64,000 bases of DNA from the human T2T-CHM13v2.0 reference genome, Homo sapiens: the NCBI RefSeq assembly GCF_009914755.1, contig NC_060926.1. One strand, 5' to 3'. A model generated the notes under the pieces. The model saw only the letters and a program-made list of their open reading frames with translations. It searched no databases and had not been told where the DNA came from. A program made the position numbers and the translations under genes. Shown in pieces: positions 24,735-29,214 of this stretch. Every line of letters begins with the position of its first letter. The first letter of the stretch is position 1.

Positions 24735-24965
24735 TATTATTAGGATTTATAGCACTGTAGAATTATTATAGTTAACAATAATATATTAAATAGTTTTAAG
24801 TAGCTAGAAGAATATTGAACATTTCCAACACAAAAAAGATAAATATTTAAAATGATGGATATACTAATTATCCTCATCAGATCACTGTACATTATGTGTA
24901 TTGAGACATCACTATAAACCTCACGGATATGTACAATTATTAGTTGTCAATTAAAAAATAAAATA
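24735..24965 (+). mobile_element. L1MA 3' end; its A-tail is the DHFR retrocopy insertion site
   Basis: tagctagaagaatattgaac...gatggatatactaattatcct...tgtcaattaaaaaataaaa. Confidence 0.75.
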
Positions 24966-25028
24966 GGCCAATCTTGGCCGTGCATCTTGGTGTAGTGAGC
25001 AGGCTCGGAGGTGCTCATCGCTGCTGTC

Positions 25029-25591
25029 ATGGTTAGTTTGCTAAACTGCGTCGTCACTGTGTCCCCCCAGAACATGGGCATCGGCAAGAACGAGGACCTG
25101 CCCTGGCCACCGCTCAGGAATGAATTCAGGTATTTCCAGAGAGTGACCACAACCTCCTCAGTAGAAGGTAAACAGAATTTGGTGATTATGGGTAGGAAGA
25201 TCTGGTTCTCCATTCCTGAGAAGAATCGACCTTTAAAGAATAGAATTAATTTAGTTCTCAGGAGGGACCACAAGAACCTCCACAAGGAGATCAATTTCTT
25301 GCAAGAAGTCTGGATGATGCCTTAAAACTTAATAACCAGAATTAGCAAATAAAGTAGACGTGATTTGGATAGTTGGTGGTAGTTCTATTTTATAAGGAAT
25401 CCATGAATCACTCAAGCAGTCTTAAACTATTTGTCACAAGGATCATACAGGACTTTGAAAGTGACACGTTTTTTCCAGAAATTGATTTGGAGAAATATAA
25501 ATTTCTGCCAGAATACCCAGGTGTTTTCTTTGATGTCCAGGAGGAGAAAGGCATTAAGTACAAATTTGAAGTACATGAGAAGAATGATTAA
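25029..25591 (+). pseudogene. DHFR: Disrupted DHFR coding region
   Basis: [33 protein letters not shown]...[16 protein letters not shown]...KFEVHEKND*; +3 nt (Pro), -1 (~25274), -4 (~25332), +1 (~25388) relative to the recalled 564-nt CDS, giving 563 nt. Confidence 0.95.
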
Positions 25592-26473
25592 TATGAAGGT
25601 GTTTTCTGGTTTAAGTTGTTCCCCCTCCCTCTGAAAAAAGTAGGTATTTTTAAATTAGAAAAAAAATACTTATGTTGACTTTAAATCTACGGATAATTAT
25701 TTCTAAGCAATGTGTTCTTATTCCCCAGTAACCTACACTATATCTGATACCATTTATGAAACATTCTTGCTGTAACTAAGTGCCTCCCCAAGACCCTGAC
25801 TGAGTCCCCAGCATGTGCTACAGTGAGCTGCCATTCCACAACCTTCACATGTGGCACTCTTGCCAGTCCTTGACATTTTCGGGCTTTTCAAATGTCGGTA
25901 GTGTTTATTAAAGATGAAGATGCACATACCCTTCCACTGAGCAGTTTCACTAGTGGGAAATACCAAAAACTTCCTGTGTGTGTATCCAGAGGTTTGTAGA
26001 CAAATGTTGCAGGCTTGTTTGTAACAGTGAAAAAATTGAAAACAACCTGGAAGTCCAGTGATTGAAAAATGAATATATTTCTGTCTCAGACTGGGGAACC
26101 CAAAGCAGATTCCAAGACTGAAATTTCAGTGAAAGCAGTTTACTTGCTAGGTCTTACCAGAAATCATCAATTGAGGTATGGAGAAATGGAACTGAGAAGG
26201 TAAGGAAACCAGTTTAAAGTCAGTAAGCAGGTTCTCATTGGTAACAAGCTCCATACTGCTGAGATACAGGGAAACCGAGGGGAGAAAGCTGGAGTATTTA
26301 TCAGCCACTCCTTGGTTGTCAGCTCCCTGTCCTGCAAGTGGCGGGAAAGTATTCCAGCTGCGCTATAGCAAGTCCCAAGTGTTTGCAATAAGAAGCTGCT
26401 GGCATGCACGGGAATAGTGAATGCCAAACACTTAAAGCAATTCCATGTTTAAGTATGTAAGCTCTTCATACTA

Positions 26474-26766
26474 TTTTTTTTTTTCAGACAGAGCATCACT
26501 TTTGTTCCCCAGGCAGACTGCAGTGGCACGATTTCAGCTCACTGCAGCCTCCTCTTTCCTGGGTTCAAGTGATTCTCCTGCCTCAGGCTCCCAAGTAGCT
26601 GGGACTACAGGCGCGGGCCACCATGCCTAGCTGATTTTGTGTTTTTGGTGGGGATGGGATTTCACGGTGTCGGTCAGTCTAGTGTCAAACCCCTGACCTC
26701 AAGTGATCTGCCTGTCTCGGCCTCCCAGAATGCTGGGATTACAGGCAAGAGCCACCGCACTCGGCA
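26474..26766 (-). mobile_element. Antisense AluS within the DHFR 3'UTR copy
   Basis: Poly(T) plus antisense Alu; cluster of A>G changes on the + strand. Confidence 0.92.
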
Positions 26767-27056
26767 GATCTTCATAATTTTTGTGTAGTAAAAAGTATAA
26801 AGTCACACATGGTTTCTTTGAAATAGTTTATAATTTAAAAAAATACAAAAGCAGGAAAACCAATTCTAATTTCAAGTGAGGGATGATGGTAGTTTGAACC
26901 AAAGGGCTGCATGTAGTATGAAATTGTGATTTAAGATATATTTTAAAGCTGGAAGTAGCAGGATATTCTGATGGAGTTTAACTTTGGTTTTGAGCCCACT
27001 GAGTCTGAGATGCCTTTGAGAAATGAAGGAAGTAGAGAGAGAATACAAGAAAAACT

Positions 27057-27328
27057 GGCCGGGCACAGTGGCTCACCCTGTAATCCCTGCACTTTGGTAG
27101 GCTGAGGCAGGCAGATCACTTGAGACCAGCTTGGGCAACATGGTGAGCCCCATCTCTACAAAAAGTACAAAAATTAGCTGGGCATTGTAGCACACACCTG
27201 TAGTCCCATATGCTAGGGGAACTGAGATGGAAGGAACAACTGAGCCCTCGAGTTCAAGGCTGCAGTGAGTCGTGATTTTGCCACTGCACTCCATCCTGGG
27301 TGACAGAAGAGACCCTGTCTCAAAAAAG
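27057..27328 (+). mobile_element. Sense AluJ within the DHFR 3'UTR copy (inverted partner of 26474-26766)
   Basis: ggccgggcacagtggctca...gagttcaaggctgcagtgag...gtctcaaaaaa. Confidence 0.9.
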
Positions 27329-27627
27329 AATCTGAAAACAATGGAACCATGCCTTCAGAATTCTAGAAAGAAAGTTATTGTCAACTGATAAATCTATTCA
27401 GCCAAATAATCAAGGGTGAAGGTGAAATAATACATTTTTAGACAAGCAAAGACTCGGGTTATCTCCATGTACCCTTTCTTGGGAAGCTAATGGAGAAAAT
27501 GCTCCAGCAAAATGAAGGAGTACACAAACCAGAGAATGACATGGATCCAGCAAATAGCATCCAACACAGGCAATATTTCAGCTATGGAGCTGGCTTTAAA
27601 AAGAAGCAGTAAAAATATTAATAGGTT

Positions 27628-27752
27628 AGCTGGGTGGAATGGCCCATGATTATAGTCTCAGCTACTCAGGAGGCTAAGCAAGAGGATGGCTTGAGCCTAA
27701 GAGTTCCAGACCAGCCTGGCCACCATAGAGAGATGTCTTCTCTTAAAAATAA
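27628..27752 (+). mobile_element. FLAM-like Alu monomer within the DHFR 3'UTR copy
   Basis: agctgggtggaatggcccatg...ttgagcctaagagttccagaccagcctgg. Confidence 0.7.
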
Positions 27753-29214
27753 TAATAGGTTATTGCCAGATTAGGGGCATTTGGGAAGAAGTTCATTGAA
27801 GATAATGCAAAGGTAAAAAAGTAAGGGGGAAGTGTTAGTTAGGCAATCATTAATTCTAGGGCAGAAAGAAGTACAGGATAGGAAGTAAGAGCATAATACA
27901 CTGTTTTTCTCAACAGTGAGCAATATGTACATAGTCATAATGATGTGGTGACTGCTTAGGCCCTAAATCTGGTAACTACTTTGGGACAATATGGGAAGAA
28001 AGGTGAAGATAATGATGGTGTAGAAGCTAAATCCTCATCTGTCATATCAAGAAATCACTATATAATGTATAAAATAATCAAGAAATGACTAAGTAGTTAT
28101 GTAAGGAAAAAAATAGAAGACGTTGCTAAAAGAGTTAAAAGTCATTGCTCTGGAGGATTAGGAGGGATGGGGCAGGGGACTGCTAGGATGTATTATAAAC
28201 TGAAGAGTCTTTTTAAAATTACAAGTATCAATATATGCATTCACTTGAAAAACTAAAAAAATAATAATTTGGAAAAACTCATGAAAGTAACTACCAGAAG
28301 GAAAAACTAAGAGAATGAAAAGTGCTTGCCTCGGGAAAGAACAACTGCCAGGACTATTGTTTTCATTGTAAGACTTTTGGATCCATTTGATTCATTTGCA
28401 TACATTTCTTTAATGAAAATAATTCTACCTTAATAAAAAGTTACCCTCATTCAAAAAAATAAAAATAAAAAATAAAGTCAGTTCAAAAATGTTTCAGACA
28501 ATTATCAGGCCTCAGCAAGTAGAAATAAATAAATATACAGTCATTCTTCATCGGCTGAAAATCATATCATGGCTGTAGAATGGTATGTGAATTTTTATTT
28601 TCATTCTCTGGGTATGGCAGTAGATATAAGACAGGCCATTTGGCACACATTGAGAGATGTGTGTGCATATATGCATGTGCTATTTCATGCACACATTTAA
28701 AAACGTAATATCATTTGTAACTTTGAGGAGTCTAGTTGGTTGCTATATGAGTAATCATTATGTTGTTCTATATCTATTAATATTGTTGATCATCACCAGT
28801 CTGAAAGAAGCTAACATAAAATCACAAAATGCCATGAAGCTGAGAACTAGTGACCCCAGGAGGAAACGAACTGACTAATGGCAAAATCTTCAGAGTTATG
28901 CCTAAAATCCTCATTCTCATGAAATGCTCTCTTTTAGAACATTTCATTTGGGACACATATGGCTTCACCAGATAAACCTTTTTACTTTACACTTTGGACG
29001 GTCAACCCACAGATGTCACATTTCCAACACCACTGAATTCTCTGAAAATAATAATAATACAAAAAGGTAAAGGGAAAGAATTTGTCACTTTGACTTGGCA
29101 GACTAAATGATGTAGATCTCAGGAGGCTGGCACTGAAGATTTTCCTCTTGGGTGCTAAACTGCAGCATAAGAAAGAAATCAACAGATAATTCAATAGAAA
29201 TTGTAGTATTCGTC

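What the first reader, a model, noticed from the sequence alone, without database searches (positions are those of the whole stretch)
26474..27328. Probable fossilised ADAR A-to-I editing in the inverted-Alu pair of the DHFR retrocopy
Seen: in the antisense Alu the mid-region reads gctGattttgtGtttttGgtGgGgat, where Alu consensus reads gctAatttttgtAtttttAgtAgAgac. That is five A>G changes in 20 nt on the mRNA-sense strand (26633, 26641, 26647, 26650, 26652), with further candidates at 26547, 26667, 26728 and in the partner Alu (27165, 27212). The three other full antisense Alus in this window (~19823, ~30856, ~37014) keep gtatttttagtagaga, which is an internal control. Four of the five core sites have a 5' T and two are TAG. 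Established: inverted Alus ~300 nt apart in a 3'UTR form ADAR substrates, the DHFR 3'UTR Alus are known to be edited, ADAR prefers 5'-U and 3'-G neighbours, and reverse transcriptase reads inosine as G. Inference: L1 machinery copied an edited germline DHFR mRNA, giving a record of ancient primate RNA editing.
Basis: partly seen in the sequence, partly recalled or inferred. Interest (0 to 1): 0.8.

Follow-up and report, generated by a model that had tools for sequence, protein, structure and literature searches.

The report
Fossil RNA editing in DHFR retrocopies
A dead copy of the DHFR gene, made long ago from its messenger RNA, carries A-to-G changes in its paired Alu repeats that are best explained as RNA editing marks frozen into DNA, and four other DHFR copies elsewhere in the genome show the same marks at overlapping sites.

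Summary
Window 26633, 26641, 26647, 26650 and 26652 are G. The parent DHFR 3'UTR on chr5 has A at all five, as do 14 of 14 unselected genomic Alus (30-32 of 34 in all).

The two Alus fold into a long duplex: 209 Alu1-Alu2 pairs in the parent RNA, and z = -15 for the window copy.

In the Alu pair, DHFRP3 has 12 well-polarised A>G against 4 T>C. That is 12 of 89 A sites against 16 of 654 outside the Alus (p = 2.6e-5). T>C is not raised.

The strongest evidence comes from the paralogues. Independent retrocopies on chr6, chr3 (intact ORF), chr20 and chr18 (young) carry G at overlapping sites in a mosaic that no single tree explains.
- Over all five copies there are 52 A>G against 6 T>C events.
- The parent lineage has 2 against 3.
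- Changed A's avoid a 5' G.

DHFRP3's private changes alone are not asymmetric (5 against 4). No primate orthologues or editing catalogue could be consulted.

Verdict: ADAR-edited DHFR mRNAs were retrocopied, confidence about 0.8. Six literature searches found no report of this.

The parts
24967..28476 (+). DHFRP3, a full-length intronless retrocopy of the long-3'UTR DHFR mRNA
   Evidence: The retrocopies on chr6, chr3 and chr18 align over q1-3510. The parent gene aligns only from q536 (window 25502, start of exon 6) onward, so the upstream exons are joined without introns. The flanks are unrelated to those of the other copies.
25029..25591 (+). Broken DHFR coding region
   Evidence: It is split into ORFs of 104 aa (25011-25325) and 72 aa (25373-25591). 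The chr3 copy keeps the reading frame open in one piece (193-aa ORF listed from an upstream GTG).
26474..26766 (+). Alu1, antisense to the mRNA; 5' arm of the duplex
   Evidence: It matches genomic Alus at 71-82% identity and pairs with Alu2 in the folds.
26633..26652 (+). Core cluster of five A>G at 26633, 26641, 26647, 26650 and 26652
   Evidence: States across copies: this copy GGGGG; chr6 AGGGA; chr3 AAGGG; chr20 AGAGA; chr18 AAGAA; parent AAAAA.
26767..27055 (+). 289-nt non-Alu spacer (loop) between the arms
   Evidence: Private changes here are A>G 0 and T>C 3.
27056..27328 (+). Alu2, sense; 3' arm of the duplex, with well-polarised A>G at 27165, 27212, 27219 and 27234
   Evidence: In the parent fold there are 209 Alu1-Alu2 base pairs.
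27628..27760 (+). Third, partial sense Alu in the UTR
   Evidence: It is visible in the alignment. This copy has no private A>G or T>C here.
28452..28476 (+). Degenerate poly(A) tail and 3' copy of a probable target-site duplication
   Evidence: aaaaaataaaat at 24953-24964 against aaaaaataaagt at 28467-28478 matches at 11 of 12 positions. The duplication is A-rich, so the exact limits are uncertain.

Best explanation
The DHFR long 3'UTR holds two oppositely oriented Alus about 290 nt apart. In the mRNA they fold into a duplex of about 210 bp. ADAR deaminated adenosines in that duplex in germline or early-embryo cells. LINE-1 reverse transcriptase read each inosine as G when it copied such an mRNA into chr2, which fixed the edits as A>G on the mRNA-sense strand of DHFRP3.

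The same thing happened separately to the mRNAs that gave the retrocopies on chr6, chr3, chr20 and chr18. As a result, overlapping but different subsets of the same adenosines are G in each copy.

Shown: the duplex, the sense-strand A>G excess confined to the Alu arms, its recurrence at shared sites, the 5'-G avoidance, and the independence of the insertions.

Inferred: the enzyme, the cell type, and that the Gs were present at the moment of insertion. About 2 to 4 of this copy's 12 well-polarised A>G are expected to be ordinary later mutations. That estimate comes from the background rate of 0.024 per A site and from the 4 T>C.
For: 1. Ancestral state. The parent DHFR and genomic Alus have A at the core sites.

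2. Substrate. The parent segment folds at -349.8 kcal/mol with 209 Alu1-Alu2 pairs. The window segment folds at -372.7 kcal/mol, z = -15.1 against 20 shuffles.

3. Strand asymmetry in the Alu pair, over 529 usable columns (117 A, 113 T). A>G against T>C:
- this copy 15 against 4
- chr6 7 against 0
- chr3 25 against 1
- chr20 15 against 3
- chr18 4 against 0
- parent lineage 2 against 3

4. Strict set, counting only sites where at least 85% of the 34 Alus carry the ancestral base, with 26641 added. This copy has 12 against 4. All copies together have 52 events at 31 sites against 6 events (p = 3e-10).

5. Confinement to the Alus. For this copy, A>G per A site is 12 of 89 in the Alus against 16 of 654 outside (p = 2.6e-5). 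T>C is 4 of 90 against 15 of 530 (p = 0.5).

6. The asymmetry follows the mRNA strand in both the antisense and the sense Alu, not the Alu's own orientation.

7. Recurrence. Where at least 2 old copies share a non-parent state and the genomic Alus agree with the parent, the classes are A>G 10, G>A 4, C>T 3, T>C 0 and transversions 0. The site patterns conflict on any tree: {P3,chr6,chr20}, {P3,chr3}, {chr3,chr20}, {P3,chr6,chr3,chr18} and {P3,chr6,chr3,chr20}.

8. Sequence preference. 5 of 45 changed A's have a 5' G, against 26 of 71 unchanged A's (p = 0.0025).

9. Independent insertions. Each copy has its own flanks, tail and target-site duplication, and the 5' ends lie at the DHFR mRNA start.

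10. The young chr18 copy has 10 private changes in the exon 6 part. All 5 that lie in Alus are A>G. Of the 5 outside the Alus, 1 is A>G.

11. A review passage states that DHFR mRNA is edited at multiple sites in its two inverted 3'UTR Alus (PMC6356570).
Against: - Changes private to this copy are not asymmetric. Strict A>G is 5 (26547, 26633, 26667, 27165, 27212) against T>C 4.
- For this copy alone, 12 against 4 gives a two-sided binomial p of 0.077. The contrast of the A>G:T>C ratio inside and outside the Alus gives p = 0.07-0.08.
- 3'-G enrichment is not significant: 19 of 45 against 24 of 72, p = 0.43.
- Core site 26652 has the disfavoured 5' G.
- Sites 26650 and 27219 are G in all four old copies, so they could instead be G>A changes on the parent lineage.
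- This copy shares 5 of chr6's 6 strict sites. That could partly reflect a common source allele rather than editing hot spots.
- Four of this copy's 15 A>G fall at positions where genomic Alus vary (26523, 26561, 27061, 27216). They may be mis-polarised CpG decay.
- 20 of the 34 reference Alus were chosen as best matches to this copy.
- No primate orthologue and no editing catalogue could be consulted.
Confidence: 0.8

Rival explanations
1. Ordinary DNA mutation after insertion. The Gs accumulated in the chr2 locus by chance, by a local mutational bias, or by GC-biased gene conversion.
For: This copy is old. It has 96 private changes in about 1840 non-Alu UTR sites. Its private Alu changes are balanced, 5 A>G against 4 T>C. 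Timing could not be checked in other primates.
Against: - The background A>G rate is 0.024 per A site, which predicts about 2 changes in 89 sites, not 12.
- T>C is not raised, which argues against GC-biased conversion.
- Genomic Alus keep A at these sites, so there is no DNA hot spot.
- The same sites are G in copies on four other chromosomes.
- The same Alus evolving as DNA in the parent gene show 2 A>G against 3 T>C.
Confidence: 0.06
2. The ancestral DHFR allele already had G at these sites. The parent later returned to A, by back-mutation or by gene conversion from another Alu, so the retrocopies simply preserve an old allele.
For: 26650 and 27219 are G in all four old copies and A only in the parent and the young chr18 copy. 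The parent lineage did change a lot: 113 sites separate it from all three old full-length copies. It also has an 8-bp duplication next to the cluster.
Against: - The Gs occur in different combinations in different copies, which one ancestral allele cannot give.
- The class 'parent equals genomic Alus, retrocopies differ' holds 10 A>G, 0 T>C and 0 transversions. Conversion of the parent would restore all kinds of differences.
- The parent keeps many private non-consensus states along both Alus, so it was not overwritten.
- chr18 differs from the parent by further A>G within the Alus.
Confidence: 0.07
3. One event inherited. The old retrocopies descend from one another or from one transcribed retrocopy (for instance the expressed chr3 gene). 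A single set of changes, whatever its cause, was then copied onward.
For: - The phylogeny of the three old full-length copies is nearly a star. Informative splits number 18, 10 and 5 sites.
- The chr3 copy has an intact ORF, and I recall it as the expressed gene DHFR2.
- Site overlaps exceed chance: this copy with chr6, 5 against 0.81 expected; chr3 with chr20, 7 against 2.63 expected.
Against: - All full-length copies start at the DHFR mRNA 5' end without foreign leader sequence, and each has its own tail and target-site duplication.
- The site patterns are mutually incompatible on any tree.
- What chr3 and chr20 share exclusively is almost only A>G, not the mix that common descent gives.
- This rival would reduce the number of independent events but would not remove the sense-strand, duplex-limited A>G signature.
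Confidence: 0.07

Closest known systems
A-to-I hyper-editing of inverted Alu pairs in human 3'UTRs, including the DHFR 3'UTR
   Same: The substrate geometry is the same: two opposite Alus about 290 nt apart forming a long duplex. The changes are A>G on the transcript strand and avoid a 5' G. A review passage reports editing at multiple sites in these DHFR Alus (PMC6356570).
   Different: Here the changes are in genomic DNA of retrocopies, not in RNA reads. Site-by-site identity with catalogued DHFR editing sites could not be tested, because the primary paper was not held.
APOBEC3 G>A editing footprints fixed in retrotransposon copies (Carmi, Church and Levanon 2011; seen only as an entry in a reference list)
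   Same: A deaminase mark is made during the RNA or cDNA phase of retrotransposition and becomes heritable DNA sequence, recognisable as a strand-specific cluster of one transition type.
   Different: The enzyme, substrate and direction differ: cytidine deamination of minus-strand cDNA gives G>A. In this copy's Alus, G>A (9) and C>T (11) are balanced, so no such signature is present. The carrier here is a cellular mRNA copy, not a transposon.
ADAR footprints (A>G hypermutation) in RNA virus genomes
   Same: Past editing is inferred from substitution spectra and from the weak (5' G) against strong neighbour contexts, as described in passages of the review PMC8586724.
   Different: Those are replicating viral genomes under selection. 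Here there is a set of dated, neutral snapshots of one host mRNA.
Ordinary LINE-1 processed pseudogene
   Same: The copy is intronless, starts at the mRNA 5' end, has a poly(A) remnant and a probable target-site duplication, and its ORF is broken.
   Different: It carries a non-random, duplex-limited A>G excess that later neutral decay does not explain.

Membership tests
LINE-1-mediated processed pseudogene (retrocopy) | Intronless copy of a spliced mRNA at a locus unlinked to the parent | tested here: met
   The parent gene on contig C5 aligns only from q536 (exon 6). The retrocopies align from q1 with the upstream exons joined. The window lies on C2.
LINE-1-mediated processed pseudogene (retrocopy) | 3' poly(A) tail and flanking target-site duplication | tested here: met
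   There is an A-rich tail at 28452-28476. The 12-nt direct repeat at 24953-24964 and 28467-28478 matches at 11 of 12 positions, but it is A-rich, so its limits are uncertain. The duplications are clearer for chr6 (aaaaccttcc) and chr18.
ADAR (A-to-I) editing footprint | Long intramolecular dsRNA that includes the changed sites | tested here: met
   There are 209 Alu1-Alu2 pairs in the parent fold. 29 of the 45 A>G sites are paired in the minimum-energy structure, 28 with U and one, at a mis-polarised CpG site, with C; the rest lie in small internal loops or bulges of the same duplex. The window fold has z = -15.1.
ADAR (A-to-I) editing footprint | A>G excess over T>C on the transcript strand, confined to the duplex | tested here: met
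   All copies together have 52 against 6 strict events, and the parent lineage has 2 against 3. This copy has 12 of 89 A sites in the Alus against 16 of 654 outside (p = 2.6e-5), with T>C unchanged. This copy alone, 12 against 4, gives p = 0.077.
ADAR (A-to-I) editing footprint | Neighbour preference: 5' G disfavoured, 3' G favoured | tested here: inconclusive
   5' G is depleted: 5 of 45 against 26 of 71, p = 0.0025. 3' G is not significantly enriched: 19 of 45 against 24 of 72, p = 0.43. Among the 13 recurrent sites, 9 have a 3' G.
ADAR (A-to-I) editing footprint | Coincidence with sites edited in present-day DHFR mRNA | not testable with these tools
   No editing catalogue is held, and the primary DHFR editing paper was not held. 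Only a review passage was seen.
ADAR (A-to-I) editing footprint | Changes present from the time of insertion (shared by all species that carry the copy) | not testable with these tools
   The held genome has no relatives, so no primate orthologues are available.
APOBEC3 cDNA editing footprint | Clustered G>A excess over C>T on the plus strand | tested here: not met
   In this copy's Alu pair, G>A is 9 and C>T is 11. The shared G>A and C>T sites fit parallel CpG decay.

The most novel reading that the evidence does not exclude
The DHFR retrocopy family is a time series of germline RNA editing. It gives at least five independent DNA snapshots of one duplex RNA, from copies with about 4-5% private divergence down to a copy with about 0.3%. 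The same adenosines appear as G again and again, for example the TAG sites homologous to 26647 and 26650, and 27219 and 27234. If this is right, site-selective ADAR editing of this Alu pair has persisted in the primate germline for tens of millions of years. Heavily edited inverted-Alu mRNAs would then also be accessible templates for LINE-1. Ancient germline editomes could be reconstructed genome-wide from retrocopies of genes with inverted-Alu UTRs.
Probability: 0.6. Interest if true: 0.75.

Novelty: new variant of a known kind. Interest (0 to 1): 0.62.

Why it matters
RNA editing leaves no trace in the genome unless the edited RNA is copied back into DNA. A retrocopy is exactly such a copy, and it must have formed in the germline or early embryo to be inherited.

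If these A>G marks are editing fossils, they record which adenosines ADAR edited in primate germ cells at several past times. That tissue and those times cannot be sampled in any other way.

The test used here is simple and could be run on every retrocopy whose parent has an inverted-repeat UTR. It compares several independent retrocopies with their parent and with genomic Alus.

The marks also matter for dating. Edited sites inflate the divergence of retrocopies and so inflate their apparent age.

Tried and rejected
- An Rfam scan of window 18000-40000 gave no match at gathering thresholds.
- The first ancestral-state rule (majority of copies plus weighted Alus) wrongly assigned sites that are G in most old copies to the parent lineage. 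It was replaced by the rule.
- Adding Alus with a fixed-length alignment misplaced the column of 26641 next to the parent's 8-bp duplication (21 A against 8 G). For that one site the free alignment (32 of 34 A) was used, and the site was added to the counts by hand.
- A Fisher test was run with a wrong denominator (800) and was redone.
- The primary DHFR editing paper and Knisbacher and Levanon 2015 could not be read, so no site-by-site comparison and no check of that possible prior art was made.
- Six literature searches and passages in eight papers surfaced no report of ADAR footprints in processed pseudogenes. The library lacks most subscription journals.
- Earlier findings of this scan were not open.
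- Considered and rejected on the data:
  - APOBEC editing, because G>A and C>T are balanced.
  - GC-biased gene conversion, because T>C is not raised.
  - An Alu-intrinsic hot spot, because genomic Alus keep A and the asymmetry follows the mRNA strand in both orientations.

Full report
**What is in the window.**
Window 24967-28476 (+) is a full-length processed copy of the long-3'UTR DHFR mRNA, annotated as DHFRP3.
- A search of the window's own assembly with 26000-28476 gave 129 matches, most of them Alus. Seven places resemble DHFR.
  - The parent gene is on contig C5 (L005).
  - Full-length copies lie on C6 (L002), C3 (L003) and C18 (L004).
  - 5'-truncated pieces lie on C4 (L006), C20 (L007) and C9 (L008).
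- By blastn the parent aligns only from q536 (window 25502, exon 6). The three full-length copies align from q1-3, so the upstream exons are joined without introns.
- The window copy has a broken reading frame, with ORFs of 104 and 72 aa.
- The C3 copy keeps the reading frame open in one piece (193-aa ORF listed from an upstream GTG). From memory I take it to be DHFR2.
- Each copy has its own flanks, poly(A) remnant and target-site duplication. The full-length copies begin at the DHFR mRNA 5' end, within about 9 nt of each other. They are therefore separate insertions of parent-gene mRNAs.

**The observation.**
- The parent has A at all five.
- In a free alignment with 34 genomic Alus, A is the state in 30-32 of 34. 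Fourteen of these Alus were taken without regard to similarity from the window and from the flanks of L009 and L010, and A is the state in 12 of 14 of them at 26633 and in 14 of 14 at the other four sites. The other 20 were the best genomic matches to this copy, which biases against the claim.

**The substrate.**
The antisense Alu (26474-26766) and the sense Alu (27056-27328) are 289 nt apart.
- The parent version of this segment (877 nt) folds at -349.8 kcal/mol with 209 Alu1-Alu2 base pairs.
- The window version (855 nt) folds at -372.7 kcal/mol, z = -15.1 against 20 shuffles.
- The core cluster lies opposite 27150-27180 of the partner arm, where this copy has a further A>G at 27165.

**Substitution spectra.**
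I polarised changes in the two Alus as follows.
- I excluded the poly-T and poly-A ends and used 26486-26760 and 27058-27320.
- The ancestral state is the parent's state where at least 70% of the genomic Alus agree with it. It is the Alu state where the parent departs from it but most old copies do not. Otherwise it is the majority of the family.
- 529 columns were usable (117 A, 113 T). 18 columns were skipped for ties or missing copies.

A>G against T>C on the mRNA strand:

| Lineage | A>G | T>C |
|---|---|---|
| this copy | 15 | 4 |
| chr6 | 7 | 0 |
| chr3 | 25 | 1 |
| chr20 | 15 | 3 |
| chr18 | 4 | 0 |
| parent lineage (same Alus evolving as DNA) | 2 | 3 |

- The parent lineage also has G>A 14, C>T 8 and transversions 7.
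- Some A>G fall at positions where genomic Alus themselves vary between A and G, which are CpG decay sites. I therefore made a strict set that needs at least 85% of the 34 Alus to carry the ancestral base.
- The strict filter drops four of this copy's sites: 26523, 26561, 27061 and 27216.
- With 26641 added by hand, the strict counts are 12 against 4 for this copy. Over all copies they are 52 A>G events at 31 sites against 6 T>C events (binomial p = 3e-10).
- Outside the Alus this copy's private changes are balanced: 16 A>G in 654 A sites and 15 T>C in 530 T sites.
- Per site, A>G is 6 times more frequent in the Alu pair (12 of 89 against 16 of 654, p = 2.6e-5). T>C is not (4 of 90 against 15 of 530, p = 0.50).
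- The asymmetry follows the mRNA strand in both arms, although one Alu is antisense and the other sense. This excludes a property of the Alu sequence itself.

**Recurrence across independent copies.**
The five core sites read:

| Copy | 26633 | 26641 | 26647 | 26650 | 26652 |
|---|---|---|---|---|---|
| this copy | G | G | G | G | G |
| chr6 | A | G | G | G | A |
| chr3 | A | A | G | G | G |
| chr20 | A | G | A | G | A |
| chr18 | A | A | G | A | A |
| parent | A | A | A | A | A |

- Take all sites in the two Alus where at least two old copies share a non-parent state and the genomic Alus agree with the parent. The classes are A>G 10, G>A 4, C>T 3, T>C 0 and transversions 0.
- The sharing patterns include {this copy, chr6, chr20}, {this copy, chr3}, {chr3, chr20}, {this copy, chr6, chr3, chr18} and {this copy, chr6, chr3, chr20}. 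Several pairs of patterns show all four combinations, so no tree explains them without repeated change at the same adenosines.
- What chr3 and chr20 share exclusively is almost only A>G. Common descent would give a mix of changes.
- In the non-Alu UTR only 2 of the 14 sites shared by two copies are A>G.
- Overlaps of the strict site sets exceed chance:
  - this copy with chr6: 5, expected 0.81, p = 1e-4
  - this copy with chr20: 5, expected 1.75, p = 0.014
  - chr3 with chr20: 7, expected 2.63, p = 0.004
- The three old full-length copies form a near-star. 113 sites separate them jointly from the parent, and 18, 10 and 5 sites support the three possible pairings.

**The young copy.**
The chr18 copy is almost identical to the parent.
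- In the exon 6 part (2975 aligned bases including ends) it has 10 private changes, once the intron and post-tail ends are set aside.
- All 5 changes that lie in Alus are A>G, at positions homologous to 26609, 26647, 26664, 27170 and 27668.
- The 5 outside the Alus are one A>G, two T>C, one C>T and one C>A.
- One of the five, at 26647, is the same TAG adenosine that is G in three old copies.

**Sequence preference.**
Of the 117 ancestral A's, 45 are G in at least one retrocopy.
- 5 of these 45 have a 5' G, against 26 of 71 unchanged A's with a defined neighbour (odds ratio 0.22, p = 0.0025).
- 3' G is more frequent but not significantly so: 19 of 45 against 24 of 72, p = 0.43.
- Among the 13 recurrent sites, 9 have a 3' G.
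- That ADAR disfavours a 5' G is established knowledge. It is also stated in a review passage I read (PMC8586724).

**Interpretation.**
The simplest account of all this has three steps.
1. ADAR edited the Alu duplex of DHFR mRNAs.
2. LINE-1 reverse transcriptase read inosine as G.
3. Several such mRNAs were inserted at different times.

A review passage confirms that present-day DHFR mRNA is edited at multiple sites in its two inverted 3'UTR Alus (PMC6356570). I could not read the primary paper or any supplement, so I cannot say whether the same adenosines are involved.

**What speaks against it, or limits it.**
- For this copy alone the evidence is moderate. 12 against 4 gives a two-sided p of 0.077. 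Its private changes are 5 strict A>G against 4 T>C. The contrast of the A>G:T>C ratio inside and outside the Alus gives p = 0.07-0.08.
- The case for this copy therefore rests largely on the seven sites it shares with other copies, and on those copies being independent.
- Sites 26650 and 27219 are G in all four old copies and could be parent-lineage changes.
- The high overlap with chr6 may partly reflect a common source allele.
- No primate orthologues were available, so the timing of the Gs is untested.

**Rivals.**
- Post-insertion mutation fails for three reasons: T>C is not raised, other Alus show no hot spot, and the sites recur on other chromosomes.
- An ancestral G-bearing allele with later reversion or conversion of the parent fails for three reasons. 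The copies show a mosaic. The class in question holds only A>G and CpG transitions. The parent Alus keep many private states.
- Descent of the copies from one another would reduce the number of events, but it is contradicted by the 5' ends, by the separate target-site duplications and by the incompatible patterns.

**Known or new.**
Deaminase footprints fixed by retrotransposition are known for APOBEC3 in retrotransposons; I saw that citation only in a reference list. ADAR footprints are described for viruses.
- Six searches of the held library surfaced no report of ADAR footprints in processed pseudogenes, or in DHFR retrocopies in particular.
- The library lacks most subscription journals, and one possibly relevant paper was not held, so prior description cannot be excluded.
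- I class this as a new variant of a known kind.

Noticed in passing
L003 (contig C3), whole 3'UTR; ORF at L003 4378-4959 (-): The chr3 retrocopy has an intact ORF and is probably DHFR2 (name recalled). It carries the heaviest footprint: 25 A>G against 1 T>C in the Alu pair, with 14 private A>G in Alu2 alone.
   Followed up: partly
L004 (contig C18): This very young retrocopy has 10 private changes in the exon 6 part. All 5 that lie in Alus are A>G, including the TAG site homologous to window 26647.
   Followed up: yes
window 27761-28440 and homologues: Private A>G against T>C in the non-Alu 3' end of the UTR is 9 against 4 in this copy, 10 against 1 in chr3 and 5 against 6 in chr6. I did not look for a pairing partner for this stretch.
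   Followed up: no
L005 (parent DHFR), homologous to window 26460-26645: The parent lineage and chr18 have an 8-bp duplication inside Alu1 next to the core cluster. They also lack about 17 bp at the Alu1 5' edge that the old copies keep, apparently one copy of the Alu's own target-site duplication.
   Followed up: no
non-Alu UTR, alignment: Take the sites where all three old copies differ from the parent (not polarised). Sense-strand purine transitions number 28 and pyrimidine transitions 14. This may be a transcription-linked asymmetry in the parent gene.
   Followed up: no
L006 (C4), L007 (C20), L008 (C9): These are three further truncated DHFR retrocopy pieces with their own flanks. The C20 piece covers only window 26572-27497 equivalents and lacks the mRNA 3' end.
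   Followed up: partly
window 25011-25591: The DHFRP3 coding region is split into two ORFs of 104 and 72 aa. An extra CCC lies near codon 13 relative to the other copies.
   Followed up: no
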